From contig OZ024744.1 of assembly GCA_964016885.1 (NCBI GenBank), positions 124,558,001 to 124,622,000 of the forward strand: a stretch of 64,000 bases of DNA, given 5' to 3'. The notes beneath the pieces were generated by a model, which saw only the letters and a list, made by a program, of their open reading frames with translations, did not search any database and was not told the DNA's origin. This DNA comes from Eledone cirrhosa. Lineage: Eukaryota. Shown piece by piece: positions 9,934-64,000 of the stretch; within the stretch, counting starts at the first letter, position 1, and every line of letters begins with the position of its first letter. The position numbers and the translations under genes were made by a program.

Positions 9934-9934
9934 A

Positions 9935-17224: not shown

Positions 17225-17225
17225 A

Positions 17226-28774: not shown

Positions 28775-28775
28775 A

Positions 28776-28928
28776 TGTGTGTTGTATTTGGTCCTAGATG
28801 TATGTATTACCTGCCTGTGTGTTGTAGGTAGTCCTAGATGTATGTGTATTACCTTCTTATATATTGCATGTGGTCCCAGCTGTATGTATTACCTGCTTGT
28901 GTGTTGTATGTGGTCCTAGATGTGTGTA
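28776..28928. repeat. 40-bp minisatellite fragment, copy 3
   Basis: Same sequence as copy 1. Confidence 0.9.
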
Positions 28929-35442: not shown

Positions 35443-35490
35443 TTAGGGTTAGGGTTAGGGTTAGCGTTAGGGTTAGGGTTAGGGTTAGGG
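35443..35490 (+). repeat. Interstitial telomeric tract (TTAGGG)3 TTAGCG (TTAGGG)4
   Basis: Read directly; leader at 35397. Confidence 0.95.
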
Positions 35491-36283: not shown

Positions 36284-36352
36284 CTTCAGAAGAGTGACGA
36301 AACCCTTATGTTGGCCGACCATTGCTCTTGCGTCGTCCTTGCACATAATACA
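36284..36352 (-). mobile_element. Degenerate hAT transposase fragment, copy 4
   Basis: Same sequence as copy 1; visible at the C-terminal end of the listed ORF 36272..36457(-). Confidence 0.65.
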
Positions 36353-36353
36353 A

Positions 36354-36506
36354 TGTGTGTTGTATTTGGTCCTAGATGTATGTATTACCTGCCTGTGTGT
36401 TGTAGGTAGTCCTAGATGTATGTGTATTACCTTCTTATATATTGCATGTGGTCCCAACTGTATGTATTACCTGCTTGTGTGTTGTATGTGGTCCTAGATG
36501 TGTGTA
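36354..36506. repeat. 40-bp minisatellite fragment, copy 4
   Basis: As copy 1 except G>A at 36457 (CCCAACTG vs CCCAGCTG). Confidence 0.9.
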
Positions 36507-39500: not shown

Positions 39501-41477
39501 AAGGCTTGGAGTTGGTGTTTAAGGCTAAGTCTAAAGCTTGGGGTTGGGGTTTAAGTCCAAGTCTAAGGCTTTGGGTTTGGTTTTAAGTCTAAATCTAAAG
39601 CTTGTTGTTCGGGTTTAAGTCTAAGTCTAAGCCTTGGGGTTCGGGTTTAAGTTAAAGACTAATGCTAGGAGTTGGGGTTCAAGTCTAAGTCTAATGCTTG
39701 TGGTTCTGGTTTATGACTAATTCTAAGGCTTTGGGTTCGGATTTAAGTCTAAGTCTAAGGCTTGGGGTTCGGGTTTAAGTCTAAGTCTGAGGCTTCGGTT
39801 TGGGGTTTAAGTCTAAGTCTAAGTATTGGGGTCACGGTTTAAATCTAAGGCTTGGGCTTGTGGTTTAAGTCTTAGTCTAATGCTTGGTGTCAAAACCTAA
39901 GTCTAAGGCTTGGGTTTGGGGTTTAAGTCTAAATCTTGGGGTTAGTGTTTAAATCTAAGTGTTGGTGTTAGGGTTTAATTCTAAGTCTAATGCTTGTGGT
40001 TGGGGTTTATATCTAAGACTAAGGCTTGGAGATGGGGTTTAAGTCTAAATCTAAGGCTTGGTGTTGGGGTTTAAGTCTAAGTCTAAGGCTTGTGGTTGGG
40101 GTTTATGTCTGAATCTAAGTCTTGGCGTTAGAGTTTAAATCTAAGCTTAAGGCTTGTGGTTTGGTTTAAGTCTAAGTGTAAGGCATTGGGTTTGGCTTTA
40201 AGTCTAAGTCTAAGTCTTGGGGTTGAGGTTTAAGTCTAAGGCTTGGGGTTATAGTTTAAGTCTAAGGGTTGGAGTTGGTGGTTAAGGCTAAGTCTAAAGC
40301 TTGGGGTTGGGGTTTAAGTTCAAGTCTAAGACTTTGTGTCTGGTTTAAGTCTAAATCTAAATCTTGTTGTTCGGGTTTAAATCTAAGTCTAAGCCTTGTG
40401 GTTCGGGTTCAAGTCTAAGTCTAATGCTTGTGGTTGTGGTTTATGTCTAATCTAAGGCTTTGGGTTCGGGTTTAAGTCTAAGTCTAAGGCTTGGGGTTCG
40501 GGTTTAAGTCTAAGTCTGAGGCTTGGGTTTGAGGTTTACGTCTAAGTCTAAGTATTGGGGTCACGGTTTAAATCTAAGGCTTGGGCTTGTGGTTTAAGTC
40601 TTAGTCTAATGCTTGGGGTTCGGGTTTAAGTTAAAGTCTAATGCTAGGAGTTGGGGTTCATGTCTAAGTTTAACGCTTGTGGTTGGGGTCTAAGGCCAAG
40701 CGTAAGAATTTGTGTTTGAGTTTAAGTCAAAGTCTAAGGCTTGGGGTTTGGGTTTAAGTCTAAGACTAAGACTTGTGGTTCGTGTCTATGCCTAAGTCTA
40801 AGGCATTGTGTTAGGGTTTGAGTCTAAATCTAAGGCTTGGGGTTGGGGTTTCAGTCCAAGTCTAAGACTTTGGGTTTGGGTTTAAGTCTAAGTCTAAGGC
40901 TTGGCGTTGGGTTTAAGTTTAAGTCTAAGTCTTGTGGTTGTGGTTTATGTCTAAGCCTAAGGCTTGGGGTTGGGGTTTGAGTCTAAGACTTGTGGTTCGT
41001 GGTTAAGTCTATGTCTAAGCCTTGTGGTTGAGGTATAAGTCTAAGTTTAAGGCTTAGGGTTGTGGTTCAAGTCTAAAGCTAAGGCTTGGGGTTGATGTTT
41101 AAGTCTAAGTCTTGGGCTTAGGGTTTAAGTCTAACTCTAAGACTTGGGGTTGGGTTTTAAGTCCAAGTCTAGGACTTTGAGTTTGGATTTAAGTCTAAGT
41201 CTAAGGCTTGGGTTTGGGGTTTAAGTCTAAGGCTTTGTGTTGAAGTTGAAGTCTGAGTCTAAGGCTTGTGGTTGGGGTTTATGTCTAAGACTAAGGCTTG
41301 GGGTTGGGGTTTAAGTCTAAATCTAAGGCTGGGGTTGGGGTCTAAATCTAAGTCTTAGACTTGGTGTTGGGGTTTAAGTCAAAAGCTTGGGGTTAGGGTT
41401 TCATGCTAAGGCTTGGAGTTGGGGTTTAAGTCTAAGACTAAGGCTTGGGTTTGGGTTTCAGTCTAAGCCTAAGTTTA

Positions 41478-41684
41478 GGTCAAGTTGGGGTTAAGTTAAG
41501 TTGGGGTTAAGTTAAGTTGGGGTTAAGTTAAGTCGGGGTTAAGTTAAGTCGGGGTTAAGTTAAGTTAGGGTTAAGTTAAGTTGGGGTTGAGTTAAGTTGG
41601 GGTTGAGTGAAGTTGTGGTTAAGTTAAGTTGGGGTTGAGTGAAGTTGGGGTTAAGTTAAGTTGGGGTTAAGTTAAGTTGGGGTT
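41478..41684 (+). repeat. Inverted (G-strand on +) module 1 of the 16-bp satellite, 5'-truncated by the 32-bp array
   Basis: (GGGGTTAAGTTAAGTT)n ending at the palindrome GGGGTT|AACCCC, centre 41684/41685. Confidence 0.92.
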
Positions 41685-44600
41685 AACCCCAACTTAACCT
41701 AACCCCAACTTAACTTAACCCCAACTTAACTTAACCCCAACTTAATTTAACCCCAGCTTAACTTAACCCCAACTTAATTTAACCCCAACTTAACTTAACC
41801 CCAACTTAACTTAAACCCAACTTAACTTAACCCCAACTTAGCTTATCCCCAACTTAACTTATCCCCAACTGAACCTAACCCCAACTTAACTTAACCCCAA
41901 CTTAACTTAACCCCAACTTAACTTAACCCCAACTTAACTGAACCCCAACTTAACTTAACCCCAACTTAAATTAACCCCAACTTAACTTAAACTCAACTTA
42001 ACTAACCCCAACTTAACTTAACCCCAACTTAACTTAACACCAACTTAACTTAACCCCAACTCGAGTTAACCCCAACTTAACTTAACCCCAACTTAACATA
42101 ACCCCAACTTCAATTAACCCTAACTTAATTTAACCCCAACTTAACTTAACCCCAACTTAAATTAACCCCAACTTAATTTAACCCCAGCTTAAATTAACCC
42201 CAACTTAATTTAACCCCAACTTAACTTAACCCCAACTTAACTTAACCCCAACTTAACTTTAAACCCAACTTAACTTAACCCCAACTTAGCTTATCCCCAA
42301 CTTAACTTATCCCCAACTTAAACTAACCCCAACTTAACTTAACCCCAACATAATTTAACCCCAACTTAATTTAACCCCAACTTAGCTTAAACCCAACTTA
42401 ACTTAACCCCAACTTAAATTAACCCCAACTGAACTTAACCCCAACTTAAATTAACCCCAACTTAACTTAACCCCAACTTAACATAACCTCAACTTAAATT
42501 AACCCCAACTTAAGTTAACCCCAACTTAACTTAACCCCAACTTCACTCAACCCCAACTTAGCTTAACCCCAACTTAACTTAAACTCAACTTAACTAACCC
42601 CAACTTAACTTAACCCCAACTTAACTTAACACCAACTTAGCTTAACCCCAACTTAACTTATCCCCAACTTAACTTATCCCCAACTTAACCTAACCCCAAC
42701 TTAACTTAACCCCAACTTAATTTAACCCCAACTTAATTTAACCCCAACTTAACTTAAACCCAACTTAACTTAACCCCAACTTAAATTAACCCCAACTGAA
42801 CTTAACCCCAACTTAAATTAACCCCAACTTAACTTAACCCCAACTTAACTTAACCCCAACTTAAATTAACCCCAACTTAACATAACCTCAACTTAAATTA
42901 ACCCCAACTTAACTCAACCCCAACTTAACTTAACCCCGACTTAACTTGACCCCAACTTAACTTAACCCCAACTTAACTTAACCGCAACTTAATTTAAACC
43001 CAACTTAAGCTAACCCCAACTTAACTTAACCCCAACTTCACTCAACCCCAACTTAACTTAACCCCAACTTAACTTAACCCCAACTTAAATTAACCCCAAC
43101 TTAACTTAAACTCAACTTAACTAACCCCAATTTAACTTAACCCCAACTTCACTAAACCCCAACTTAATTTAACCCCAACTTAACTTAACCCCAACTTAAC
43201 TTAACCCCAACTTAACTCAGCCCCAACTTAACTTAGCCCCAACTTAAATTAACCCCAACTTAACTTAACCCCAACTTAACTTAACCCCAACTTAAGTTGA
43301 CCCCAACTTAAATTAACCCCAACTTAACTTAACCCCAACTGAACTTAACCCCAACTTAACTTAGCCCCAACTTAACTTAGCCCCAAATTAACTTAGCCCC
43401 AACTTAACTTAACTAGAACTTAACTTAACCTCAACTTAACCCCAAATTAACTTAACCCCAACTTAACTTAACCCCAACTTAACTTATCCCCAATTTAACC
43501 CCAACTTAACTCAAACTCAACTTAACTTAACCCCAAGTTAACTTAACCCCAACTTAACTCAACCCCAACTTAATTAACCCCCACTTAACTTAGACCCAAT
43601 TTAAATTAACCACAACTTAGCTTAACCCGAACTTAACTTAACCCCAAGTTAACTTAACCTCAACTTAACTTAACCCCAACTTAACTTAACCCCAACTTAA
43701 TTTAACCCAAACTTAACTTAACCCCGACTTAACTTAACCCCAACTTAACTTAACCCCAACTTAATTAACCCCAACTTAATTTAACCCCAACTTAACTTAA
43801 CCCCAACTTAACTTAACCCCAACTCAACTTAGACCCAACTTAACTTAGCCCCAACTTAACTTAACCCCAACTTAACTTAGCCCTAATTTAACTTAGCCCC
43901 ACCTTAACTTAAACCCAACTTAACTTAACCCCAACTTAACTTAACCCCAACTTAACTTAACACCAACTTAACCTGCCCCCAACTTAACGTACCCCCAACT
44001 TAACTTAACCCCAACTTAATTTAATCCCAACTTAATTTAACCCCAACTTAACTTAAACCCAACTTAACTTAACCCCAACTTAAATTAACCCCAACTGAAC
44101 TTAACCCCAACTTAACTTAACCCCAACTTAAATTAACCCCAACTTAAAATAACCTCAACTTAAATTAACCCCAACTTAACACCACCTTAACTTAACCCCA
44201 ACTTAACTTAACCCCAACTCTACTTAACCCCAACTTAACTTAACCCCAACTTAACATAACCCCAACTTAAATTAACCCTAACTTAACTTAACCCCAACTT
44301 AACTTAACCCCAACTTCACTCAACCCCAACTTAACTTACACCCAACTTAACTTAACCCCAACTTAATTTAACCCCAACTTAAATTAACCCCAACTTAACA
44401 TAACCACCACTTAACTTAACCCCAACTTAACTCAACCCCAACTTGACTTAACCCTAACTTAAATTAACCCCAACTTAACTTAACCCCAACTTAACTTAAT
44501 CCCAACTTAACTTAACCCCAACTTAACTAAACCCCAACTTAACTCAACCCCAACTTAACTTAACCCCAACTTAACTTAACCCCAAGTTAACTTAACCTCA

Positions 44601-45504
44601 ACTTAACTTAACCCCAACTTAACTTAACCCCAACTTAATTTAACCCCAACTTAACTTAACTCCGACTTAACTTAACCCCAACTTAACTTAACCCCAACTT
44701 AATTAACCCCAACTTAATGTAACCCCAACTTAACTTAACCCCAACTTAACTTAACCCCAACTCAACTTAGACCCAACTTAACTTAGCCCCAACTTAACTT
44801 AACCCCAACTTAACTTAGCCCTAATTTAACTTAGCCCCAACTTAACTTAAACCCAACTTAACTTAGCCCCAACTTAACTTAACCCCAACTTAACTTGACC
44901 CCAACTTAATTTAACCCCAACTTAATTTAACCCCAACTTAACGTAAACCCAACTTAACTTAACCCCAACTTAAATTAACCCCAACTGAACTTAACCCCAA
45001 CTTAAATTAACCCCAACTTAACTTAACCCCAACTTAACTTAACCCCAACTTAAATTAACCCCAACTTAACATAACCTCAACTTAAATTAACCCCAACTTA
45101 ACTTAACCCCAACTTAACACCAACTTAACTTAACCCCAACTTAACTTAACCCCAACTCTACTTAACCCCAACTTAACTTAACCCCAACTTAACATAACCC
45201 CAATTTAAATTAACCCTAACTTAACTTAACCCCAACTTAACTTAACCCCAACTTCACTCAACCCCAACTTAACTTACACCCAACTTAACTTAACCCCAAC
45301 TTAATTTAACCCCAACTTAACTTAACCCCAACTTAACTCAACCCCAACTTAACTTAACCTTAACTTAACTTAACCCCAACTTAACCCCAACTTAACTTAA
45401 CCCCAACTTAATTTACCCCCAACTTAACTTACCCCCAACTTAACTTAACCCCAACTTAAGTTAAGCCTAAATTAACTTAACCCCAACTTAACTTAACTCC
45501 GACT

Positions 45505-45704
45505 TTGGTGTTAAGTTAAGTTGGGGTTAAGTTAAGTTGGGGTTAAGTCAAGTTGGGGTTAAGTTAAGTTGGGGGTAAGTTAAGTTGGGTGTGAGTTAAG
45601 TCGGGGTTAAGTCAAGTTGGGGTTAAATTAAGTTGGGGTTAAGTTAAGTTGGGGTTGAGTGAAGTTGGGGTTAAGTTAAGTTGGGGTTAAGTTAAGTTGG
45701 GGTT
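45505..45704 (+). repeat. Inverted module 2 (200 bp)
   Basis: Starts after AACTCCGACT and ends at GGGGTT|AACCCC 45704/45705. Confidence 0.95.
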
Positions 45705-48700
45705 AACCCCAACTTAACCTAACCCCAACTTAACTGAACCCCAACTTAACTTAACCCCAAATTAATTTAACCCCAGCTTAAATTAACCCCAACTTAATTT
45801 AACCCCAACTTAACTTAACCCCAACTTAACTTAAACCCAACTTAACTGAACCCCAACTTAGCTTATCCCCAACTTAACTTGTCCCCAACTTAACCTAACC
45901 CCAACTTAACTTAACCCCAACTTAACTTAGCCCCAACTTAACTTAACCCCAACTTAACTGATTCCCAACTTAACTTAAACTCAACTTAAATTAACCCCAA
46001 CTTAACTTAAACTCAACTTAACTAACCCCAACTTAACTTAACCCCAACTTAACTAAACCCCAACTTAACTTAACCCAAACTTAACTTAACCTCAACTTAA
46101 CTTAACCCCAACTTAACTCAGCCCCAACTTAAATTAGCCCCAACTTAAATTAACCCCAACTTAACTTAACCCCAACTTAACTTAACCCCAACTTAAGTTG
46201 ACCCCAACTTAAATTAACCCCAACTTAACTTAACCCCAACTTAACTTAACCCCAACTTAACTTAGCCCCAACTTAACTTAGCCCCAAATTAACTTAGCCC
46301 CAAATTAAATTAACCACAATTTAACTTAACCTCAAGTTAACCCCAAATTAACTTAACCCCAACTTAACTTAACCCCAACTTAACTTAACCCCAAATTAAC
46401 CCCAACTTAACTCAAACTCAACTTAACTTAACCCCAAGTTAACTTAACCCCAACTTAACTCAACCCCAACTTAATTAACCCCCACTTAACTTAGACCCAA
46501 TTTAACTTAACCCCAACTTAGCTTAACCCCAACTTAACTTAACCCGAACTTAAATTAACCCGAACTTAACTTAACCCCAACTTAACTTAACCCCAACTTA
46601 ACTTAACCCCAACTTAACTCAACCCCAACTTAACTCAACCCCAACTTAACTTAACCCCAACTTAACTTAACCCCAAGTTAACTTAACCTCAACTTAACTT
46701 AACCCCAACTTAACTTAACCCCAACTCGACTTAACCCCAACTTAACTTAACCCCAACTTAACATAACCCCAACTTAAATTAACCCTAACTTAACTTAACC
46801 CCAACTTAACTTAACCCCAACTTCACTCAACCCCAACTTAACTTACACCCAACTTAACTTAACCCCAACTTAAATTAACCCCAACTTAACTGAACCCCAT
46901 CTTAACTTAACCCCAACTTAAATTAACCCCAATTTAACTTAAACTCAACTTAACTAACCCCAACTTAACTTAACCGCAACTTAACTTAACCCCAACTTAA
47001 CTTAACCCCAACTTAACTTAAACCCAACTTAACTTAACCCCAACTTAAGTTATCCCCAACTTAACTTATCCCCTACTTAACCTAGCCCAAACTTAACTTA
47101 ACCCCAACTTAACTTAGCCCCAACTTAACTTAAACCCAACTTAAATTAACCCCAACTTAACTTAACCTCAACTTAAGTGAGACCCAACTTAACTTACGCC
47201 CAACTTAACTTAACACCAACTTAATTTAACCCCAACTTAACTTAGACCCAACTTAACTTAGCCCCAACTTAACTTAACCCCAACTTAACTTAGCCCTAAC
47301 TTAACTTAGCCCCAACTTAACTTAACCCCAACTTAACTCAAACCCAAGTTAACTAAACCTCAATTTAACTTAACCCCAACTTAACTCAACACCAACTTAA
47401 CTCAACCCCAACTTAACTCAAACCCAATTTAACTATATCCCAACTTAACTCAACCCCAACTTAACTTAACTCCAACTTAACTTAACCCTAACTTAACTTA
47501 ACACCGACTTAACTTAACCCCCACTTAACTTCACCCCAACTTAACTTAACCCCAACTTAACTTAACCCCAACTTAACTTAACCCCAACTTAACTTAACCC
47601 CAACTTAATTTAACCCCAACTTAACCCAAACTTAACTTAACCCCAACTTAACTGAACCACAACTTAACTTAACCCAAACTTAACTTAACCCCAACTTAAC
47701 TAAACCCCAACTTAACTTAACCCCAACTTAACTTAACCCTAACTTAACTTAACCCCAACTTAACTGAACCACAACTTAACTTAACCCAAACTTAACTTAA
47801 CCCCAACTTAACTAAACCCCAACTTAATTTAACCCCAACTTAACTTAACCCCAACTTAACATAACCCCAACTTAACTCAGCCCCAAATTAACTTAGCCCC
47901 AACTTAAATTATCCCCAACTTAACTTAACCCCAACTTAACTTAACCCCAACTTAAGTTGACCCCAACTTAAATTAACCCCAACTTAACTTAATCCCAACT
48001 TAACTTAACCCCAACTTAACTTAGCCCCAACTTAACTTAGCCCCAAATTAACTTAACCCCAAGTTAACTTAACCTCAACTTAACTTAACCCCAACTTAAC
48101 TTAACCCCAACTTAACCCCAAATTAACTTAACCCCAACTTAACTTAACCCCAACTTAACTTAACCCCAACTTAACCCCAACTTAACTCAAACTCAACTTA
48201 ACTTAACCCCAAGTTAACTTAACCCCAACTTAACTCAACCCCAATTTAAGTTAACCCCCACTTAACTTAGACCCAATTTAACTTAACCCCAACTTAACTT
48301 AACCCCAACTTAAATTAACCCCAACTTAACTTAACCCCAACTTAACTTAACCCCAACTTAACTTAACCCCAACTTAACTCAACCCCAACTTAACTCAACC
48401 CCAACTTAACTTAACCCCAACTTAACTTAACCCCAAGTTAACTTAACCTCAACTTAATTTAACCCCAACTTAACTTAACCCCAACTTAATTTAACCCCAA
48501 CTTAACTTAACTCCGACTTAACTTAACCCCAACTTAACTTAACCCCAACTTAATTAACCCCAACTTAATGTAACCCCAACTTAACTTAACCCCAACTTAA
48601 CTTAACCCCAACTCAACTTAGACCCAACTTAACTTAGCCCCAACTTAACTTAACCCCAACTTAAATTAGCCCTAATTTAACTTAGCCCCAACTTAACTTA

Positions 48701-49376
48701 AACCCAACTTAACTTAGCCCCAACTTAACTTAACCCCAACTTAACTTGACCCCAACTTAATTTAACCCCAACTTAATTTAACCCCAACTTAACTTAAACC
48801 CAACTTAACTTAACCCCAACTTAAATTAACCCCAACTGAACTTAACCCCAACTTAAATTAACCCCAACTTAACTTAACCCCAACTTAACTTAACCCCAAC
48901 TTAAATTAACCCCAACTTAACATAACCTCAACTTAAATTAACCCCAACTTAACTTAACCCCAACTTAACACCAACTTAACTTAACCCCAACTTAACTTAA
49001 CCCCAACTCTACTTAACCCCAACTTAACTTAACCCCAACTTAACATAACCCCAACTTAAATTAACCCTAACTTAACTTAACCCCAACTTAACTTAACCCC
49101 AACTTCACTCAACCCCAACTTAACTTACACCCAACTTAACTTAACCCCAACTTAATTTAACCCCAACTTAACTTAACCCCAACTTAACATAACCACCACT
49201 TAACTTAACCCCAACTTAACTCAACCCCAACTTAAATTAACCCTAACTTAACTTAACCCCAACTTAACTTAACCCCAACTTAATTTACCCCCAACTTAAC
49301 TTACCCCCAACTTAACTTAACCCCAACTTAAGTTAAGCCTAACTTAACTTAACCCCAACTTAACTTAACTCCGACT

Positions 49377-49576
49377 TTGGGGTTAAGTTAAGTTGGGGTT
49401 AAGTTAAGTTGGGGTTAAGTCAAGTTGGGGTTAAGTTAAGTTGGGGGTAAGTTAAGTTGGGTGTGAGTTAAGTCGGGGTTAAGTCAAGTTGGGGTTAAGT
49501 TAAGTTGGGGTTAAGTTAAGTTGGGGTTGAGTGAAGTTGGGGTTAAGTTAAGTTGGGGTTAAGTTAAGTTGGGGTT
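49377..49576 (+). repeat. Inverted module 3 (200 bp)
   Basis: Same two junctions; exit centre 49576/49577. Confidence 0.95.
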
Positions 49577-51901
49577 AACCCCAACTTAACCTAACCCCAA
49601 CTTAACTGAACCCCAACTTAACTTAACCCCAACTTAATTTAACCCCAGCTTAACTTAACCCCAACTTAAATTAACCCCAACTTAACTTAACCTCAACTTA
49701 AGTGTGACCCAACTTAACTTACGCCCAACTTAACTTAACACCAACTTAATTTAACCCCAACTTAACTTAGACCCAACTTAACTTAGCCCCAACTTAACTT
49801 AACCCCAACTTAACTTAGCCCTAACTTAACTTAGCCCCAACTTAACTTAACCCCAACTTAACTCAAACCCAAGTTAACTAAACCTCAATTTAACTTAACC
49901 CCAACTTAACTCAACACCAACTTAACTCAACCCCAACTTAACTCAAACCCAATTTAACTCAACCCCAACTTAACTCAACCCCAACTTAACTTAACCCCAA
50001 CTTAACTTAACCCTAACTTAACTTAACACCGACTTAACTTAACCCCCACTTAACTTCACCCCAACTTAACTTAACCCCAACTTAACTTAACCCCAACTTA
50101 ACTTAACCCCAACTTAACTTAACCCCAACTTAATTTAACCCCAACTTAACCCAAACTTAACTTAACCCCAACTTAACTGAACCACAACTTAACTTAACCC
50201 AAACTTAACTTAACCCCAACTTAACTAAACCCCAACTTAACTTAACCCCAACTTAACTTAACCCTAACTTAACTTAACCCCAACTTAACTGAACCACAAC
50301 TTAACTTAACCCAAACTTAACTTAACCCCAACTTAACTAAACCCCAACTTAACTGAACCCCAACTTAACTTAACCCCAACTTAACATAACCCCAACTTAA
50401 CTCAGCCCCAACTTAACTTAGCCCCAACTTAAATTAACCCCAACTTAACTTAACCCCAACTTAACTTAACCCCAACTTAAGTTGACCCCAACTTAAATTA
50501 ACCCCAACTTAACTTAACCCCAACTTAACTTAACCCCAACTTAACTTAGCCCCAACTTAACTTAGCCCCAAATTAACTTAACCCCAAGTTAACTTAACCT
50601 CAACTTAACTTAACCCCAACTTAACTTAACCCCAACTTAACCCCAAATTAACTTAACCCCAACTTAACTTAACCCCAACTTAACTTAACCCCAACTTAAC
50701 CCCAACTTAACTCAAACTCAACTTAACTTAACCCCAAGTTAACTTAACCCCAACTTAACTCAACCCCAATTTAAGTTAACCCCCACTTAAATTAGACCCA
50801 ATTTAACTTAACCCCAACTTAACTTAACCCGAACTTAAATTAACCCCAACTTAACTTAACCCCAACTTAACTTAACCCCAACTTAACTTAACCCCAACTT
50901 AACTCAACCCCAACTTAACTCAACCCCAACTTAACTTAACCCCAACTTAACTTAACCCCAAGTTAACTTAACCTCAACTTAATTTAACCCCAACTTAACT
51001 TAACCCCAACTTAATTTAACCCCAACTTAACTTAACTCCGACTTAACTTAACCCCAACTTAACTTAACCCCAACTTAATTAACCCCAACTTAATGTAACC
51101 CCAACTTAACTTAACCCCAACTTAACTTAACCCCAACTCAACTTAGACCCAACTTAACTTAGCCCCAACTTAACTTAACCCCAACTTAAATTAGCCCTAA
51201 TTTAACTTAGCCCCAACTTAACTTAAACCCAACTTAACTTAGCCCCAACTTAACTTAACCCCAACTTAACTTGACCCCAACTTAATTTAACCCCAACTTA
51301 ATTTAACCCCAACTTAACTTAAACCCAACTTAACTTAACCCCAACTTAAATTAACCCCAACTGAACTTAACCCCAACTTAAATTAACCCCAACTTAACTT
51401 AACCCCAACTTAACTTAACCCCAACTTAAATTAACCCCAACTTAACATAACCTCAACTTAAATTAACCCCAACTTAACTTAACCCCAACTTAACACCAAC
51501 TTAACTTAACCCCAACTTAACTTAACCCCAACTCTACTTAACCCCAACTTAACTTAACCCCAACTTAACATAACCCCAACTTAAATTAACCCTAACTTAA
51601 CTTAACCCCAACTTAACTTAACCCCAACTTCACTCAACCCCAACTTAACTTACACCCAACTTAACTTAACCCCAACTTAATTTAACCCCAACTTAACTTA
51701 ACCCCAACTTAACATAACCACCACTTAACTTAACCCCAACTTAACTCAACCCCAACTTAAATTAACCCTAACTTAACTTAACCCCAACTTAACTTAACCC
51801 CAACTTAATTTACCCCCAACTTAACTTACCCCCAACTTAACTTAACCCCAACTTAAGTTAAGCCTAACTTAACTTAACCCCAACTTAACTTAACTCCGAC
51901 T

Positions 51902-52101
51902 TTGGGGTTAAGTTAAGTTGGGGTTAAGTTAAGTTGGGGTTAAGTCAAGTTGGGGTTAAGTTAAGTTGGGGGTAAGTTAAGTTGGGTGTGAGTTGAGTCG
52001 GGGTTAAGTCAAGTTGGGGTTAAGTTAAGTTGGGGTTAAGTTAAGTTGGGGTTGAGTGAAGTTGGGGTTAAGTTAAGTTGGGGTTAAGTTAAGTTGGGGT
52101 T
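51902..52101 (+). repeat. Inverted module 4 (200 bp)
   Basis: Same two junctions; exit centre 52101/52102. Confidence 0.95.
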
Positions 52102-55100
52102 AACCCCAACTTAACCTAACCCCAACTTAACTGAACCCCAACTTAACTTAACCCCAACTTAATTTAACCCCAGCTTAACTTAACCCCAACTTAATTTAAC
52201 CCCAACTTAACTTAACCCCAACTTAACTTAAACCCAACTTAAATTAACCCCAACTTAGCTTATCCCCAACTTAACTTATCCCCAACTTAACCTAACCCCA
52301 ACTTAACTTAACCCCAACTTAACTTAACCCCAACTTAACTTAACCCCAACTTAACTGATTCCCAACTTAACTTAAACTCAACTTAAATTAACCCCAACTT
52401 AAGTTAAACCCAACTTAACATAACCCCAACTTAACTTAACCCCAACTTAAGTCAACCCCAACTTAACTTAACCCTAACTTAACTTAACCCCAAATTAACT
52501 TAACCCCAACTTAACTTAACCCCATCTTAACTTACCCCCAACTTAACTTACCACCAACTTACCTTACCCCCAACTTAACTTAACCCCAACTTAATTTAAA
52601 CCCAACTTAACTTAACCCCAACTTAACTTAACCCCATCTTAACTTATCCCCAACTTAACTTAAGCCCAACTTAAGTCAACCCCAACTTAACTCAACCCCA
52701 ACTTAATTAAACCCCAACTTAACTTAACCCCAACTTAACTTAAACCCAACTTAACTTAAACCCAACTTAAGTTAACCCCAACTTAACTTAACCCCAACTT
52801 CCCTCAACCCCAACTTAACTTAACCCCAACTTATCTTAACCCCAACTTAACTTAACCCCAACTTATCTTAACCCCAACTTAAATTAACTCCAACTTAAGT
52901 TACCCCCAACTTAACTTAACCCCAACTTAACTTAACCCCAACTTAGCTTATCCCCAACTTAACTTAACCCCAACTTAATATAACCCCAACTTAACTTAAC
53001 CCCAACTTAACACAACCCCAACTTAAATTAACCCCAACTTAACTTAACCCCAACTTAACTTAACCCCAACTTAATTAACCCCAACTTAATTTAACCCCAA
53101 CTTAACTTAACCCCAACTTAACTTAACCCTAACTCAACTTAGACCCAACTTAACTTAGCCCCAACTTAACTTAACCCCAACTTAACTTAGCCCTAACTTA
53201 ACTTAGTCCCAACTTAACTTAAACCCAACTTAACGTAAACCCAACTTAACTTAACCCCAACTTAACTTAACCCCAACTTAAATAACCCCAACTTAAATTA
53301 ACCCCAACTTAACTTAACCCCAACTTAACTTAACCCCAACTTAAAATAACCTCAACTTAAATTAACCCCAACTTAACTCAACCCCAACTAAACTTAACCC
53401 CGACTTAACTTAACCCCAACTTAACTTAACCCCAACTTAACTGAACCCCAACTTAACTTAACCCCAACTTCACTCAACCCCAACTTAACTTAACCCCAAC
53501 TTAACTTAACTCCAACTTAACTTAACCACAAAGTTAACTTAACCCCAATTTAAATTAACCCCAACTTATCTTAACCCCAACTTAACATAACCACCACTTA
53601 AATTAACCCCAACTTAACCCCAACTTAACTTAACCCCAACATAACACCAACTTAACTTAACCCCAACTTAAATTAACCCCAACTCTACTTAACCCCAACT
53701 TAACATAACCCCAACTTAACATAACCCCAACTTAAATTAACCCTAACTTAACTTAACCCCAACTTAATTTAACCCCAACTTAACTTAACCCCAACTTAAC
53801 TTAAACCCAAATTAAGTTAACCCCAACTTAACTTAACCCCAAATTAACTCAACCCCAACTTAACTCAACCCCAACTTAACTTAACCCCAACTTATCTTAA
53901 CCCCAACTTAACTTAACCCCAACTTAACTTAACCCCAACTTAACTTAACCCCAACTGAACATAACCACCTCTTAACTTAACCCCAACTTAACTCAACCCC
54001 AACTTAACTTAAACCCAACTTAACATAACCCCAACTTAACTTAACCCCAACTTAAGTCAACCCCAACTTAACTTAACCCTAACTTAACTTAACCCCAAAT
54101 TAACTTAACCCCAACTTAACTTAACCCCATCTTAAGTCAACCCTAACTTAACTTAACCCCAACTTAACCCAACTTAACTTAACCCCAACTTAACTTACCA
54201 CCAACTTAACTTACCCCCAACTTAACTTAACCCCAAAATAACTTAACCCCAACTTAACTTAACCCCATCTTAACTTACACCCAACTTAACTTACCCCCAA
54301 CTTAACTTACCCCCAACTTAACTTAACCCCAACTTAACTTAACCCCAACTTAAATTAACCCCAACTTAACTTAACCCCAACTTATCTTAACCCCAACTTA
54401 AATTAACCCCAACTTAATTTAACCCCAACTTAAATTAACCCCAACTTAACTTAACCCCAACTTAACTTAACCCCAACTTAACTTAACCCCAACTTAACTT
54501 AACCCCAACTTAACTTAACCGCAACTTAACTTAACCCCAACTTAACTTAACCCCAACTTAACTTAAACCCAACTTAACATAACCCCAACTTAACTTAACC
54601 CCAACTTAAGTCAACCCCAACTTAACTTAACCCTAACTTAACTTAACCCCAAATTAACTTAACCCCAACTTAACTTAACCCCATCTTAACTTACCCCCAA
54701 CTTAACTTACCACCAACTTACCTTACCCCCAACTTAACTTAACCCCAACTTAATTTAACCCCAACTTAACTTAACCCCAACTTAACTTAACACCATCTTA
54801 ACTTAACCCCAACTTAACCTAACCCCAACTTAACTTAACCCCAACTTCACTCAACCCCAACTTAACTTAACCCCAACTTAACTTAACTCCAACTTAACTT
54901 AACCACAAAGTTAACTTAACCCCAATTTAAATTAACCCCAACTTAACTTAACCCCAACTTAACATAACCACCACTTAACTTAACCCCAACTTAACCCCAA
55001 CTTAACTTAACCCCAACTTAACACCAACTTAACTTAACCCCAACTTAAATTAACCCCAACTCTACTTAACCCCAACTTAACGTACACCCAACTTAACTTA

Positions 55101-58100
55101 ACCCCAACTTAATTTAACCCCAACTTAACTTAACCCCAACTTAACTTAAACCCAAATTAAGTTAACCCCAACTTAACTTAACCCCAAATTAACTCAACCC
55201 CAACTTAACTCAACCCCAACTTAACTTAACCCCAACTTATCTTAACCCCAACTTAACTTAACCCCAACTTAACTTAACCCCAACTTAACTTAACCCCAAC
55301 TGAACATAACCGCCTCTTAACTTAACCCCAACTTAACTCAACCCCAACTTAACTTAACCCTAACTTAACTTAACCCCAACTTAACCCAACTTAACTTAAC
55401 CCCAACTTAACTTACCCCCAACTTAACTTACCACCAACTTAACTTACCCCCAACTTAACTTAACCCCAAAATAACTTAACCGCAACTTAACTTAACCCCA
55501 TCTTAACTTACACCCAACTTAACTTACCCCCAACTTAACTTACCCCCAACTTAACTTAACCCCAACTTAACTTAACCCCAACTTAAATTAACCCCAACTT
55601 AACTTAACCCCAACTTAAATTAACCCCAACTTAACTTAACCCCAACTTAACTTAACCCCAACTTAAAATAACCTCAACTTAAATTAACCCCAACTTAACT
55701 CAACCCCAACTTAACTTAACCCCGACTTAACTTAACCCCAACTTAACTTAACCCCAACTTAACTGAACCCCAACTTAACTTAACCCCAACTTCACTCAAC
55801 CCCAACTTAACTTAACCCCAACTTAACTTAACTCCAACTTAACTTAACCACAAAGTTAACTTAACCCCAATTTAAATTAACCCCAACTTATCTTAACCCC
55901 AACTTAACATAACCACCACTTAAATTAACCCCAACTTAACCCCAACTTAACTTAACCCCAACATAACACCAACTTAACTTAACCCCAACTTAAATTAACC
56001 CCAACTCTACTTAACCCCAACTTAACATAACCCCAACTTAACATAACCCCAACTTAAATTAACCCTAACTTAACTTAACCCCAACTTAATTTAACCCCAA
56101 CTTAACTTAACCCCAACTTAACTTAAACCCAAATTAAGTTAACCCCAACTTAACTTAAACCCAAATTAACTCAACCCCAACTTAACTCAACCCCAACTTA
56201 ACTTAACCCCAACTTATCTTAACCCCAACTTAACTTAACCCCAACTTAACTTAACCCCAACTTAACTTAACCCCAACTGAACATAACCACCTCTTAACTT
56301 AACCCCAACTTAACTCAACCCCAACTTAACTTAACCCTAACTTAACTTAACCCCAACTTAACCCAACTTAACTTAACCCCAACTTAACTTACCACCAACT
56401 TAACTTACCCCCAACTTAACTTAACCCCAAAATAACTTAACCCCAACTTAACTTAACCCCATCCTAACTTACACCCAACTTAACTTACCCCCAACTTAAC
56501 TTACCCCCAACTTAACTTAACCCCAACTTAACTTAACCCCAACTTAAATTAACCCCAACTTAACTTAACCCCAACTTAATTTAACCCCAACTTAACTTAA
56601 CCCCAACTTATCTGAACCCCAACTTAAATTAACCCCAACTTAATTTAACCCCAACTTAAATTAACCCCAACTTAACTTAACCCCAACTTAACTTAACCCC
56701 AACTTAACTTAACCCCAACTTAACTTAACCCCAACTTAACTTAACCGCAACTTAACTTAACCCCAACTTAACTTAACCCCAACTTAACTGAAACCCAACT
56801 TAACATAACCCCAACTTAACTTAACCCCAACTTAAGTCAACCCCAACTTAACTTAACCCTAACTTAACTTAACCCCAAATTAACTTAACCCCAACTTAAC
56901 TTAACCCCATCTTAACTTACCCCCAACTTAACTTACCACCAACTTACCTTACCCCCAACTTAACTTAACCCCAACTTAATTTAACCCCAACTTAACTTAA
57001 CCCCAACTTAACTTAACCCCATCTTAACTTAACCCCAACTTAACTTAACCCCAACTTAACTTATCCCCAACTTAACTCATCCCCAACTTAACCTAACCCC
57101 AACTTAACTTAACCCCAACTTCACTCAACCCCAACTTAACTTAACCCCAACTTAACTTAACTCCAACTTAACTTAACCACAAAGTTAACTTAACCCCAAT
57201 TTAAATTAACCCCAACTTAACATAACCACCACTTAACTTAACCCCAACTTAACCCCAACTTAACTTAACCCCAACTTAACACCAACTTAACTTAACCCCA
57301 ACTTAAATTAACCCCAACTCTACTTAACCCCAACTTAACGTACACCCAACTTAACTTAACCCCAACTTAATTTAACCCCAACTTAACTTAACCCCAACTT
57401 AACTTAAACCCAAATTAAGTTAACCCCAACTTAACTTAACCCCAAATTAACTCAACCCCAACTTAACTCAACCCCAACTTAACTTAACCCCAACTTATCT
57501 TAACCCCAACTTAACTTAACCCGAACTTAACTTAACCCCAACTTAACTTAACCCCAACTGAACATAACCGCCTCTTAACTTAACCCCAACTTAACTCAAC
57601 CCCAACTTAACTTAACCCTAACTTAACTTAACCCCAACTTAACCCAACTTAACTTAACCCCAACTTAACTTACCCCCAACTTAACTTACCACCAACTTAA
57701 CTTACCCCCAACTTAACTTAACCCCAAAATAACTTAACCCCAACTTAACTTAACCCCATCTTAACTTACACCCAACTTAACTTACCCCCAACTTAACTTA
57801 CCCCCAACTTAACTTAACCCCAACTTAAATTAACCCCAACTTAATTTAACCCCAACTTAACTTAACCCCAACTTATCTTAACCCCAACTTAAATTAACCC
57901 CAACTTAATTTAACCCCAACTTAACTTAACCCCAACTTAACTTAACTCCAACTTAACTTAACCCCAACTTAACTTAACCGCAACTTAACTTAACCCCAAC
58001 TTAACTTAACCCCAACTTAAGTTAAACCCAACTTAACATAACCCCAACTTAACTTAACCCCAACTTAAGTCAACCCCAACTTAACTTAACCCTAACTTAA

Positions 58101-58872
58101 CTTAACCCCAAATTAACTTAACCCCAACTTAACTTAACCCCATCTTAACTTACCCCCAACTTAACTTACCACCAACTTACCTTACCCCCAACTTAACTTA
58201 ACCCCAACTTAATTTAAACCCAACTTAACTTAACCCCAACTTAACTTAACCCCATCTTAACTTAACCCCAACTTAACTTAAGCCCAACTTAAGTCAACCC
58301 CAACTTAACTCAACCCCAACTTAATTAAACCCCAACTTAACTTAACCCCAACTTAACTTAAACCCAACTTAACTTAAACCCAACTTAAGTTAACCCCAAC
58401 TTAACTTAACCCCAACTTCCCTCAACCCCAACTTAACTTAACCCCAACTTAACTTAACCCCAACTTAACTTAACCACAAAGTTAACTTAACCCCAATTTA
58501 AATTAACCCCAACTTAAGTTAACCCCAACTTAACATAACCACCACTTAACTTAAACCCAACTTAACCCCAACTTAACTTAACCCCAACTTAACACCAACT
58601 TAACTTAACCCCAACTCTACTTAACCCCAACTTAACTTAACCCCAACTTCACTCAACCCCAACTTAACTTACACCCAACTTAACTTAACCCCAACTTAAT
58701 TTAACCATAACTTAACTTAACCCCAACTTAACATAACCACCACTTAACTTAACCCCAACTTAAGTTAACCCCAACTTAACTTACCCCCAACTTAACTTAC
58801 CCCCAACTTAACTTAAGCCCAACTTAAGTTAAGCCTAACTTAACTTAACCCCAACTTAACGTAACTCCGATT

Positions 58873-59167
58873 TTGGGGTTAAGTTAAGTTGGGGGTAAGT
58901 TAAGTTGGGTGTGAGTTAAGTTGGGGTTAAGTCAAGTTGGGATTAAGTTAAGTTGGGGTTAAGTTAAGTTGGGGTTAAGTTAAGTTGGGGTTAAGTTAAG
59001 TCGGGGTTAAGTTAAGTCGGGGTTAAGTTAAGTTAGGGTTAAGTTAAGTTGGGGTTAACTTAAGTTGGGGTTGAGTTAAGTTGGGGTTGAGTGAAGTTGG
59101 GGTTAAGTTAAGTTGGGGTTGAGTGAAGTTGGGGCTAAGTTAAGTTGGGGTTAGTTAAGTTGGGGTT
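58873..59167 (+). repeat. Inverted module 5 (295 bp)
   Basis: Entry AACTCCGATT|TTGGGG; exit GGGGTT|GACCCC, where an A>G breaks the palindrome centre. Confidence 0.95.
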
Positions 59168-60778
59168 GACCCCAACTTAACCTAACCCCAACTTAACTTA
59201 ACCCCAACTTAAGTTAACCCCAGCTTAACTTATCTCCAACTTAATTTAACCCCAACTTAACTTAACCCCAACTTAACTTAAACCCAACTTAACTTAACCC
59301 CAACTTAACTTATCCCCAACTTTACTTATCCCCAACTTAACCTAACCCCAACTTAACTTAACCCCAACTTAAATTAACCCCAACTTGACTTATCCCCAAC
59401 TTAACTGAACCCCAACTTAACTTAACCCCAACTTAAATTAACCCCAACTTAACTTAAACTAAACTTAACTAACCCCAACTTAACTTAACCCCCAACTTAA
59501 CTTAACCCCAACTTAACTTAACCACAACTTAACTTAAACCCAACTTAACTTAACCCCAACTTAACTTATCCCCAACTTAACTAATCCCCAACTTAACCTA
59601 ACCCAAACTTAACTTAACCCCAACTTAACTTAACCCCAACTTAATTTAACCCCAACTTAACTTAACCCCAGCTTAACATAAACCCAACTTAACTTAACCC
59701 CAAGTTAAATTATCCCCAACTTAACTTATCCCCAACTTAACCTAACCCCAACTTAACTTAAACCCAACTTAACTTAACCCCAACTTAATTTAACCCCAAC
59801 TTAACCTAACCCAAACTTAACCTAACCCCAACTTAACTTAACCCCAACTTAATTTAACCCCAACTTAACTTAACCCCAGCTTAACTTAAAGCCAACTTAA
59901 CTTAACCCCAACTTAACTTAACCCTAACTTAACTTAACACCGACTTAACTTAACCCCGACTTAACTTAACCCCAACTTAACTTAACCCCAACTTAACTTA
60001 ACCCCAACTTAACTTAACCCCAACTTAATTTAACCCCAAATTAACCCAAACTTAACTTAACCCCAACTTAACTGAACCACAACTTAACTTAACCCAAAAT
60101 TAACTTAACCCCAACTTAACTTAACCCCAACTTAACTTAACCCCAACTTAACTCAGCCCCAACTTAACTTAGCCCCAACTTAAATTAACCCCAACTTAAT
60201 TTAACCCCAACTCAACTTAACCCCAACTTAAGTTGACCCCAACTTAAATTAAACCCAACTTAACTTAACCCCAACTTAACTTAACCCCAACTTAACTTAG
60301 CCCCAACTTAACTTAGCCCCAACTTAACTTAGCCCCAACTTAACTTAACCACAACTTAACTTAACCTCAACTTAACCCCAACTTAACTTAACCCCAACTT
60401 AAATTAACCCCAACTTAACATAACCTCAACTTAAATTAACCCCAACTTAACTCAACCCCAACTTAACTTAACCCCGACTTAACTTAACCCCTACTTAACT
60501 TAACCCCAACTTAACACCAACTTAACTTAACCCCAACTTAACATAACCCCAACTTAAATTAACCCTAACTTAACTTAACCCCAACTTAACTTAACCCCAA
60601 CATCAGTCAACCCCAACTTAACTTACACCCAACTTAACTTAACCCCAACTTAATTTAACCCCAACTTAACTTAACCCCAACTTAACATAACCACCACTTA
60701 ACTTACCCCCAAATTAACTTAACCCCAACTTAAGTTAAGCCTAACTTAACTTAACCCCAACTTAACTTAACTCCGACT

Positions 60779-61122
60779 TTGGGGTTAAGTTAAGTTGGGG
60801 TTAAGTTAAGTTGGGGTTAAGTCAAGTTGGGGTTAAGTTAAGTTGGGGGTAAGTTAAGTTGGGTGTGAGTTAAGTTGGGGTTTATTCAAGTTGGGGTTAA
60901 GTTAAGTTGGGGTTAATTTAAGTTGGGATTAAGTTAAGTTGGGGTTAAGTTAAGTCGGGGTTAAGTTAAGTCGGGGTTGAGTTAAGTTAGGGTTAAGTTA
61001 AGTTGGGGTTAAGTTAAGTTGGGGTTGAGTTAAGTTGGGGTTGAGTGAAGTTGTGGTTAAGTTAAGTTGGGGTTGAGTGAAGTTGGGGTTAAGTTAAGTT
61101 GGGGTTAAGTTAAGTTGGGGTT
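60779..61122 (+). repeat. Inverted module 6 (344 bp)
   Basis: Same two junctions; exit centre 61122/61123. Confidence 0.95.
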
Positions 61123-61781
61123 AACCCCAACTTAACCTAACCCCAACTTAACTTAACCCCAACTTAACTTAACCCCAACTTAATTTAACCCCAGCTTAAC
61201 TTAACCCCAACTTAATTTAACACAAACTTAACTTAACCCCAACTTAACTTAAACCCAACTTAACTTAACCCCAACTTAGCTCATCCCCAACTTAACTTAT
61301 CCCCAACTTAACCTAACCCCAAATTAACTTAACTCCAACTTAACTTAACCCCAACTTAACTTAACCCCAACTTAACTGAACCCCAACTTAACTTAACCCT
61401 AACTTAAATTAACCCCAACTTAACTTAAACTCAACTTAACTAACCCCAACTTAACTTAACCCCAACTTAACTTAACACCAACTTAACTTAACCCCAACTT
61501 AACTTAACCCCAACTCGACTTAACCCCAACTTAACTTAACCCCAACTTAACATAACCCCAACTTAAATTAACCCTAACTTAAATTAACCCCAACTTAACT
61601 TAACCCCAACTTCACTCAACCCCAACTTAACTTACACCCAAATTAACTTAACCCCAACTTAACCCCAACTTAACTTAACCCCAACTTAACTTACCCCCAA
61701 CTTAACTTACCCCCAACTTAACTTAACCCCAACTTAAGTTAAGCCTAACTTAACTTAACCCCAACTTAACTTAACTCCGAA

Positions 61782-62120
61782 TTGGGGTTAAGTTAAGTTG
61801 GGGTTAAGTTAAGTTGGGGTTAAGTCAAGCTGGGGTTAAGTTAAGTTGGGGGTAAGTTAAGTTGGGTGTGAGTTAAGTTGGGGTTAAGTCAAGTTGGGGT
61901 TAAGTTAAGTTGGGGTTAAGTTAAGTTGGGGTTAAGTTAAGTTGGGGTTAAGTAAAGTCGGGGTTAAGTTAAGTCGGGGTTAAGTTCGGGTTAAGTTAAG
62001 TTGGGGTTATTTTAAGTTGGGGTTGAGTTAAGTTGGGGTTGAGTGAAGTTGGAGTTAAGTTAAGTTGTGGTTGAGTGAAGTTGGGGTTAAGTTAAGTTGG
62101 CGTTAAGTTAAGTTGGGGTT
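61782..62120 (+). repeat. Inverted module 7 (339 bp)
   Basis: Entry AACTCCGAA|TTGGGG; exit centre 62120/62121. Confidence 0.95.
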
Positions 62121-63932
62121 AACCCCAACTTAACCTAACCCCAACTTAACTTAACCCAAACTTAATTTAACCCCAGCTTAACTTATCCCCAACTTAATTT
62201 ATCCCCAACTTAACTTATCCCCAACTTAACTTAACCCCAACTTAAATTAACCCCAACTTAACTTAACCCCAACTTAACTTAACCCCAACTTGACTTAACC
62301 CCAACTTAACTGAACCCCAACTTAACTTAACCCCAACTTAAATTAACCCCAACTTAACTTAAACTAAACTTAACTAACCCCAACTTAACTTAACCTCAAC
62401 TTAACTTAACCCCAACTTAACTTAAACCCAACTTAACTTAACCCCAATTTAACTTATCCCCAACTTAACTTATCCCCAACTTAACCTAACCCAAACTTAA
62501 CTTCACCCCAACTTAACTTAACCCCAACTTAATTTAACCCCAACTTAACTTAACCCTAACTTAACTTAACACCGACTTAACTTAACCCCGACTTAACTTA
62601 AGCCCAACTTAACTTAACCCCAACTTAACTTAACCCCAACTTTACTTAACCCCAACTTAATTTAACCCCAACTTAACCCAAACTTAACTTAACCCCAACT
62701 TAACTAAACCCCAACTTAACTTAACCCCAACTTAACTTAACCCCAACTTAATTTAACCCCAACTTAACTTAAACCCAACTTAACTTAACCCCAACTTAAC
62801 TTATCCCCAACTTAACTTATTCCCAACTTAACCTAACCCAAACTTAACTTAACCCCAACTTAACTTAACCCCAACTTAATTTAACCCCAACTTAACTTAA
62901 CCTCAACTTAACTGAGACCCAACTTAACTTACCCCCAACTTAACTTAACCCCAACTTAACTTAACCCCAACTTAACTTAGACCCAACTTAACTTAGCCCC
63001 AACTTAACTTAAACCCAAATTAACTTAGCCCTAACTTAACTTAGCCCCAACTTAACTTAAACCCAACTTAACTTAACCCCAACTTAACTTAACCCCAACT
63101 TAACTTATCCCCAACTTAACTCAAACCCAAGTTAACTTAACCTCAATTTAACTTAACCGCAACTTAGCTTAACCCCAACTTAACTTAACCCCAACCTAAA
63201 TTAACCCCAACTTAACTTAACCCCAACTTAAGTTAACCCCAACTTAACTTAACCCCAACTTAACTCAGCCCCAACTTAACTTAGCCCCAACTTGAATTAA
63301 CCCCAACTTAACTCAACCCCAACTTAACTTAAACCCAACTTAAATTAACCCCAACTTAACTTAACCCCAACTTAACTTATCCCCAACTTAACTCAAACCC
63401 AAGTTAACTTAACCTCAATTTAACTTAACCCCAACTTATCTTAACCCCAACTTAACTTAACCCCAACCTAAATTAACCCCAACTTAACTTAACCCCAACT
63501 TAAGTTAACCCCAACTTAACATAACCCCAACTTAAATTAACCCTAACTTAACTTAACCCCAACTTAACTTAACCCCAACTTCACTCAACCCCAACTTAAC
63601 TTACACCCAACTTAAATTAACCCTAACTTAACTTAACCCCAACTTAACTTAACCCCAACTTCACTCAACCCCAACTTAACTTACACCCAACTTAACTTAA
63701 CCCCAACTTAATTTAACCCCAACTTAACTTAACCCCAACTTAACATAACCACCACTTAACTTAACCCCAACTTAACTCAACCCCAACTTAAATTAACCCT
63801 AACTTAACTTAACCCCAACTTAACTTAACCCCAACTTAATTTACCCCCAACTTAACTTACCCCCAACTTAACTTAACCCCAACTTAAGTTAAGCCTAACT
63901 TAACTTAACCCCAACTTAACTTAACTCCGACT

Positions 63933-64000
63933 TTGGGGTTAAGTTAAGTGGGGGTTAAGTTAAGTTGGGGTTAAGTCAAGTTGGGGTTAAGTTAAGTTGG
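63933..64000 (+). repeat. Inverted module 8 (cut by the window end)
   Basis: Entry AACTCCGACT|TTGGGG at 63932/63933. Confidence 0.9.

What the first reader, a model, noticed from the sequence alone, without database searches (positions are those of the whole stretch)
41478..64000. Satellite punctuated by recurrent short inverted modules with two fixed junctions (built-in long palindromes)
Seen: eight G-strand modules. Complete lengths are 200, 200, 200, 295, 344 and 339 bp, i.e. 8 + 16n (n = 12, 18, 21) apart from small deletions. The seven intact entries follow variants of AAG(T)TAAGCCTAAC...AACTCCGA, and the seven visible exits lead into AACCCCAACTTAACCTAACCCC. Exit centres are at 41684, 45704, 49576, 52101, 59167, 61122 and 62120, i.e. 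every 1-7 kb. Each module is complementary to the array on both sides, so either junction could extrude a 200-340 bp hairpin or cruciform, and a transcript from either strand would fold into long dsRNA. Long near-spacerless palindromes are normally unstable, so their retention and amplification is notable. Hypotheses: a source of small RNAs for heterochromatin, non-B-DNA seeds for centromere or telomere function, or the driver of array amplification.
Basis: partly seen in the sequence, partly recalled or inferred. Interest (0 to 1): 0.75.

Follow-up and report, generated by a model that had tools for sequence, protein, structure and literature searches.

The report
One satellite flip, copied ~800 times
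In a long array of a 16-base repeat, a 200-350-base stretch lies back to front every few kilobases with the same two joints; its roughly 800 copies likely descend from one old DNA-copying U-turn and were likely multiplied as passengers of ordinary array duplication, with no sign here that the possible hairpins are specially preserved.

Summary
In detail: eight reversed modules, at the coordinates and lengths given. The genome holds 774 exact exit cores and 773 entry cores, all listed ones on contig C28. They share junctions, internal variants and flanks, so they likely descend from one inversion. They sit inside 99.5-99.99% identical head-to-tail duplications.

The palindromes are imperfect: arms are about 88% alike, the same as random array pieces, and the perfect arm at the window's exits is 14 bp. 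Duplication ends are not enriched at modules (22 of 237; 11.8% expected). Junctions are no better conserved than non-palindromic landmarks. Long stretches of the same satellite have no modules.

A second, independent module family mirrors its neighbouring DNA, which points to replication template switching. One weak lead remains: 3 of 7 non-register joins, including a strand switch of at least 124 kb, start inside modules.

Closest known: Tribolium macro-dyad satellites, and small inverted triplications. The scan noted similar amplified satellite inversions on other DNA of this genome. Function is unsupported; reads and RNA are untested.

The parts
41474..64000 (+). 16-bp satellite array, C-rich on + (consensus AACCCCAACTTAACTT); runs on to a 200-N gap about 69.5 kb past the window end
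1..41473 (+). 32-bp G-rich satellite, monomer resembling the G strand of the 16-mer; joins the 16-mer array inside module 1
41475..41684 (-). Module 1: exit part of a long-type module, entry replaced by the 32-mer array
45505..45704 (-). Module 2, 200 bp
49377..49576 (-). Module 3, 200 bp, 99.0% identical to module 2
51902..52101 (-). Module 4, 200 bp, 99.5% identical to module 3
58873..59167 (-). Module 5, 295 bp, exit centre broken (TTGA)
60779..61122 (-). Module 6, 344 bp
61782..62120 (-). Module 7, 339 bp
63933..64000 (-). Module 8, cut by the window end; 200-bp type, copy of module 4 in a 12-kb duplication
45458..45510 (.). Entry junction and upstream landmark (type example): C strand turns to G strand across a 2-base loop with a mismatch next to it
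45691..45718 (.). Exit junction (type example): spacerless dyad centred on the monomer's own TTAA, 14-bp perfect arms
47135..52194 (+). Tandem duplication, 2535 bp at offset 2525, 99.5% identical, carrying one module per copy
51575..63615 (+). First copy of a ~12-kb tandem duplication (99.9%) carrying four modules; the second copy lies mostly past the window end

Best explanation
The modules are copies of one short reversed segment that likely arose by a double template switch during replication and was likely spread as a passenger by ordinary head-to-tail duplication of the satellite. Shown: the junctions, internal variants and flanks are shared; the modules lie inside near-identical kilobase duplications; duplication ends are not enriched at modules; arms are as divergent as random array pieces; junctions are no more conserved than other landmarks; long arrays lack modules. 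Inferred: a single origin for the window's family (family I); a template-switch origin, shown by a mirror signature only for the separate family II and carried over to family I by analogy and by the TTAA microhomology at its exit; tolerance because mismatched arms extrude rarely. Unit gains and losses inside modules (88-488 bp) likely reflect the same in-register slippage as in the rest of the array.
For: Shared entry and exit cores: 773 and 774 exact sites in the genome; all 91 sites of the narrow entry pattern lie on C28. Shared flank and module variant patterns across sub-families. Duplications of 2.5, ~12 and 8.4 kb at 99.5-99.99% identity carry 1-4 modules each. Distinct duplication ends in or within 50 bp of a module: 22 of 237, expected 11.8%, p = 0.27. 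Module versus flank identity 0.875-0.915, random array segments 0.868-0.891. Near/far substitution ratio 0.48 (exit) and 0.73 (entry) against 0.37-0.59 for four non-palindromic landmarks. No switch in 147.6 kb at C28 130.10-130.25 Mb, in 9 of 12 10-kb samples at 127.1-129.9 Mb (the other 3 hold family II), or in 8 of 8 pure 10-kb samples of the C3 array. Density varies from 0 to 8 per 10 kb and spacing CV is 0.62-0.91. Family II: the reversed module matches the right flank from its first base over 112, 83 and 99 bp with at most one mismatch, after a 49-65 bp inverted spacer; 0 of 21, 18 and 28 other windows in the same loci reach this.
Against: Family I itself shows no clear mirror: only a shared run of one common variant at the entry (0.88 shared variants vs 0.38 null, null P(>=2) = 0.07, one event), and three of six left-flank identities in the upper null tail (0.06, 0.05, 0.01). 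The spacerless exit centre is intact in most copies (135 of 182 with the commonest 18-bp core), with perfect arms of 27-43 bp in the 130.25-130.30 Mb sub-family; an unstable centre might be expected to erode faster. Three of seven non-register joins fall inside modules, so modules are not wholly inert. The landmark control rests on 4 landmarks. Neutrality tests on one assembly have limited power.
Confidence: 0.72

Rival explanations
1. The dyads are kept by selection as non-B DNA or long double-stranded RNA that would help set heterochromatin or a centromere in the module-dense domain at C28 130.25-132.79 Mb.
For: Strong predicted hairpin. About 800 copies with stereotyped junctions. Modules in 21 of 23 satellite-bearing 10-kb samples of that domain. 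The same idea is proposed for Tribolium arrays (PMC13081366). The satellite also lies near the middle of the two long contigs C2 and C3.
Against: No extra conservation at junctions. Irregular spacing. Centre-breaking variants and exit-less modules are amplified too. C3 and C2 samples have no switch.
Confidence: 0.12
2. Hairpins at the junctions would stall forks or break, and repair would drive the duplications that expand the array.
For: Inverted repeats of 86% identity remain recombinogenic above background in yeast, more so in single-stranded DNA (PMC10164571, passages). One sub-family has lost its exit centre by a join into an AT-rich satellite.
Against: Duplication ends are not enriched at modules (22 of 237 vs 11.8%). 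Module-free arrays of the same satellite reach hundreds of kb to Mb by sampling.
Confidence: 0.07
3. Each module is an independent recent fold-back, or a sequencing or assembly chimera.
For: Fold-back reads exist as an artefact class (own knowledge). The block is bounded by a gap and may be misplaced.
Against: A chimera would mirror adjacent DNA; window modules do not. They carry heritable variants that sort into regional sub-families along the contig.
Confidence: 0.03

Closest known systems
Tribolium macro-dyad satellites (T. madens TmSat1/TmSat2, PMC13081366: abstract, passages, whole Discussion read; T. freemani TfSat01, PMC12581902: passages read)
   Same: Satellite arrays with frequent orientation switches whose junctions fall into a few conserved types present in hundreds to thousands of copies; no foreign DNA at the switch; the same functional hypotheses, untested.
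   Different: There the inverted sub-arrays are kilobases long, roughly balanced and on several or all chromosomes. Here they are 88-488 bp, about 8% of the array, always paired entry-exit, of one main origin, and seen on one contig. That paper states such symmetries are documented only in Tribolium; this is a 3.0-Gb genome with TTAGGG runs.
Small inverted triplications (PMC13334657: abstract and passages read) and four-point short template switches, type 1-3-4-2 (PMC5453318: passages read)
   Same: Central inverted piece of similar size (median 160 bp there, 232 bp here), short reverse-complement microhomology at junctions; family II shows an inverted repeat with an inverted spacer.
   Different: Those are single, often unstable events in yeast mutants, cancers or unique primate DNA. 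Here one event inside a satellite is amplified about 800-fold, and family I has lost or never had a clear mirror.
Periodicity-preserving kilobase tandem duplications in Arabidopsis centromeres (10.1101/2025.06.02.657473: passages read)
   Same: Whole-unit insertions and deletions of kilobase size that copy whatever variants lie inside.
   Different: The word 'inversion' does not occur in that text; no inverted passenger is described.
Cichlid centroid-flanked alternating satellite blocks (PMC13652916: abstract and outline only)
   Same: Orientation switches in putative centromeric satellite.
   Different: Four large blocks separated by ~15-kb elements, once per centromere; not hundreds of short modules.

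Membership tests
Tribolium-type macro-dyad satellite | Recurrent orientation switches inside one satellite array | tested here: met
Tribolium-type macro-dyad satellite | A few conserved junction types in many copies | tested here: met
   774 exit and 773 entry cores; centre tallies
Tribolium-type macro-dyad satellite | Multi-kilobase, roughly balanced inverted sub-arrays | tested here: not met
   88-488 bp, median 232; 8.2% of the array in the window
Tribolium-type macro-dyad satellite | Same junction types on several chromosomes | tested here: not met
   All 91 sites of the narrow entry pattern on C28; first 100 rows on C28, the rest unlisted; no switch in C2 and C3 samples
Tribolium-type macro-dyad satellite | (Peri)centromeric location | not testable with these tools
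   Subterminal on C28, mid-contig on C2 and C3; no chromatin data
Tribolium-type macro-dyad satellite | Junctions verified in raw long reads | not tested
   No reads were laid on the array
Small inverted triplication / short template switch | Short central inverted fragment | tested here: met
Small inverted triplication / short template switch | Inverted fragment copies adjacent DNA (mirror at variant level) | tested here: inconclusive
   Met for family II on the right flank; not shown for family I, the window's family
Small inverted triplication / short template switch | Short microhomology at the switch points | tested here: met
   Family I exit and both family II junctions sit on the monomer's TTAA dyad; family I entry has about 1 base of overlap (read)
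Small inverted triplication / short template switch | Flanking direct duplication | tested here: inconclusive
   The whole array is direct repeat; family II left flank is only a diverged likeness
Small inverted triplication / short template switch | Link to Okazaki fragment ends or FEN1 | not testable with these tools
   none
Fragile near-perfect palindromes (PATRR, Alu inverted pairs) | Long arms of near-complete identity around an intact centre | tested here: not met
   0.875-0.915 identity, 14-bp perfect exit arm, broken entry centre
Foldback or miniature inverted-repeat transposon | Copies inserted at unrelated sites | tested here: not met
   Copies share flanking variants on both sides and move within larger duplications

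The most novel reading that the evidence does not exclude
The amplified modules are built-in inverted homology that lets a one-directional satellite recombine with itself in reverse. They seed large polarity switches and joins to other satellites, so a single old replication slip now shapes the megabase architecture of this chromosome end, and such short seeds are how Tribolium-type macro-dyads begin. Support: the switch at C28:133,355,377 starts at a module entry and runs at least 124 kb in a module-free sub-array without mirroring the left side; the 32-mer join and one AT-rich join also lie inside modules; 3 of 7 distinct joins against an 8-12% share, P = 0.014-0.042, counted after the fact.
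Probability: 0.2. Interest if true: 0.6.

Novelty: new variant of a known kind. Interest (0 to 1): 0.3.

Why it matters
Conserved inversion junctions in satellites have been read as a sign of function. This array offers a within-genome control: hundreds of stereotyped junctions can be explained by one event plus duplication, and they are no more conserved than ordinary landmarks. Module-rich and module-free stretches of the same satellite lie side by side, so CENP-A, structure or small-RNA data would test the dyad hypothesis directly. It also extends such switches beyond flour beetles. If the modules do seed large inversions, they give a route from a small replication error to megabase satellite rearrangement.

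Tried and rejected
No reads were laid, so read-level confirmation stays open. Search for a full sense-strand source of six representative modules in the three contiguous blocks: best scores 13-16 against self-scores 38-87, partial likeness only. An apparent dip in substitutions at the exit (30 of 270 within 16 bp, 20% expected) looked like conservation but is matched by anchored landmarks (4 of the 14 commonest landmarks had enough distinct contexts, 10 were dropped; one search used 176 of 179 family-I modules and left out the 3 family-II modules). Mirror at the 133.355-Mb switch: 0 inverted chains of 600 bp or more. A strict higher-order period was rejected: spacing 812-13,695 bp. Paper searches listed nothing on this 16-mer or on amplified short inverted modules in a satellite; the library is partial and no supplements were read. 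The centromere atlas preprint (10.64898/2026.09.17.752431, term passages only) had nothing on satellite strand switches. Scan notes by place and by sequence returned nothing for this stretch. My recalled likeness of downstream repeats to 18S rRNA was not confirmed by Rfam, which found large-subunit fragments instead.
Full report
Observation. Segmenting the window by monomer phase and strand gives eight G-strand segments in a C-strand 16-bp array that starts at about 41474. Module 1 has lost its entry to the upstream 32-bp satellite; module 8 is complete just past the window. A strand across one exit folds at -165 kcal/mol against -3.6 for module-free array.

Setting. The window is G000:C28:124,558,001-124,622,000 in a 3.0-Gb genome; C28 is 136.5 Mb. 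The array continues to a 200-N gap near 124.69 Mb. The same satellite fills most samples from 127.0 to 135.25 Mb, mainly on the other strand. The window block shares 39-64% of 64-mers with 132.0-132.8 Mb and at most 17% with other samples, and both blocks end at gaps, so they may be one array split in scaffolding (inference). The satellite also occurs mid-contig on C2, in a 520-bp composite unit, and on C3, next to TTAGGG arrays. Flanking repeats recalled octopod sequence to me and scan notes say the same; this is recalled and untested.

Copy number and origin. A self-complementary exit core occurs at 774 sites and a degenerate entry core at 773. Only the first 100 rows were listed, all on C28; the narrower entry pattern listed all 91 sites, all on C28. 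In the DNA fetched I found 182 complete modules: 179 of family I, 88-488 bp, median 232, and 3 of family II with other junctions at 128.85-129.6 Mb. Family I copies share junctions, internal variant order and flank variants, sorted into regional sub-families. One ancestral inversion is the simplest reading (inference).

How good are the palindromes? The exit is spacerless on the monomer's own TTAA. Its perfect arm is 14 bp at six of seven window exits and 0 at the seventh; the entry centre is broken after 1 bp. The 130.25-130.30 Mb sub-family has exit arms of mostly 27-43 bp. Over the whole module, identity to either flank is 0.875-0.915, against 0.868-0.891 for random array segments. The complementarity is thus what any reversed piece of this satellite would have. 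In yeast, lowering Alu inverted-pair identity to 94 and 86% cut rearrangement rates about 15- and 58-fold, and a mismatch near the centre also lowers them (PMC10164571, passages). Such arms are damped, not inert.

Mechanism of origin. Window modules do not mirror their flanks beyond chance. At the entry there is a weak hint, one shared run of a common variant. Family II does mirror: the reversed module matches the right flank from its first base for 112, 83 and 99 bp after a 49-65 bp spacer, unmatched by 67 other windows in those loci. This is the inverted repeat with inverted spacer of the four-point template-switch model (PMC5453318, passages) and is close in size to small inverted triplications (PMC13334657, abstract and passages). 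Three of the four junction types sit on TTAA. I infer the same origin for family I, with the mirror eroded.

Mechanism of spread. Modules lie inside tandem duplications of 2.5, about 12 and 8.4 kb at 99.5-99.99% identity. Of 237 distinct duplication ends in three contiguous blocks, 22 lie in or within 50 bp of a module; 11.8% is expected (p = 0.27). Spacing is irregular and density runs from 0 to 8 per 10 kb. No switch was seen in 147.6 kb at 130.10-130.25 Mb, in 9 of 12 samples at 127.1-129.9 Mb or 7 of 19 at 132.9-135.25 Mb, or in 8 of 8 pure C3 samples. Whole-unit kilobase duplications are the documented mutation type in Arabidopsis satellites (10.1101/2025.06.02.657473, passages).

Conservation. 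Substitutions are fewer near the exit than further out. Anchoring on four non-palindromic landmarks gives the same dip (ratios 0.37-0.59 against 0.48 for the exit and 0.73 for the entry), so the dip comes from anchoring. Variants that break the centre, and a sub-family whose exit is replaced by an AT-rich satellite, were amplified too. Against my reading, most exits keep an intact centre (135 of 182 with the commonest core).

Remaining lead. Of seven distinct non-register joins seen, three lie inside modules: the 32-mer join, one AT-rich join and the strand switch at C28:133,355,377. That switch begins with a module entry and about two monomers, then runs at least 124 kb in a different, module-free sub-array with no mirror to the left side. 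P is 0.014-0.042 for an 8-12% share, but the count is after the fact, two of the joins need a G-strand partner anyway, and none is checked in reads.

Comparison and verdict. It works like Tribolium macro-dyad satellites (PMC13081366, abstract, passages and Discussion; PMC12581902, passages) but fails two of their features: long balanced sub-arrays and spread over chromosomes. I rate it a new variant of a known kind. Scan notes describe similar amplified inversions in other satellites of this genome; these are unchecked leads, not support. Best reading: template-switch inversion spread as a passenger, 0.72. Interest 0.3.

Noticed in passing
L159:2663-2907, L160:8116-8328, L162:7708-7936 in reverse-complement coordinates (C28 128.85-129.6 Mb): A second, independent inverted-module family (213-245 bp) with other junctions and a clear mirror to its right flank.
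   Followed up: yes
L127:5377 (C28:133,355,377): Array-scale strand switch that starts at a module entry and continues at least 124 kb without modules; not a mirror of the left side.
   Followed up: yes
L006-L007 and L065-L083 (C28 124.634-124.643 Mb; 132.60-132.79 Mb): AT-rich satellite blocks of 0.7-8.4 kb inside the 16-mer array; in one sub-family they join inside a module and remove its exit. L122 and L123 are wholly AT-rich.
   Followed up: partly
L011 (gap near C28:124,691,519) and L056 (gap near 132,793,500): Window block and the 132.0-132.8 Mb block share far more 64-mers than other regions and both end at 200-N gaps: possible scaffolding split or misorientation. The sequence after the second gap is a degraded C-rich run.
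   Followed up: partly
L164-L173 (C2 209.2-209.75 Mb of 416 Mb): 520-bp composite satellite: about 250 bp of the 16-mer plus a 270-bp unrelated segment, near the contig midpoint.
   Followed up: partly
L174-L183 (C3 184.74-185.11 Mb of 379 Mb): Pure 16-mer array abutting interstitial TTAGGG arrays near the contig midpoint; may mark an old end-to-end chromosome fusion (inference).
   Followed up: partly
L015:7690-8527 and L023:1-889: Degenerate large-subunit rRNA fragments followed by a histone 3' stem-loop (Rfam), in repeated units that also carry a short 16-mer tract (L012).
   Followed up: partly
window 1-41473: 32-bp satellite with kilobase-scale repeated blocks holding short TTAGGG runs (for example 7025-7091, 9019-9079) and a 40-bp repeat; no strand switch seen in 200-bp windows.
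   Followed up: no
L148 (C28 126.55 Mb): A printed stretch looks like C2H2 zinc-finger coding sequence (recalled pattern, not tested).
   Followed up: no
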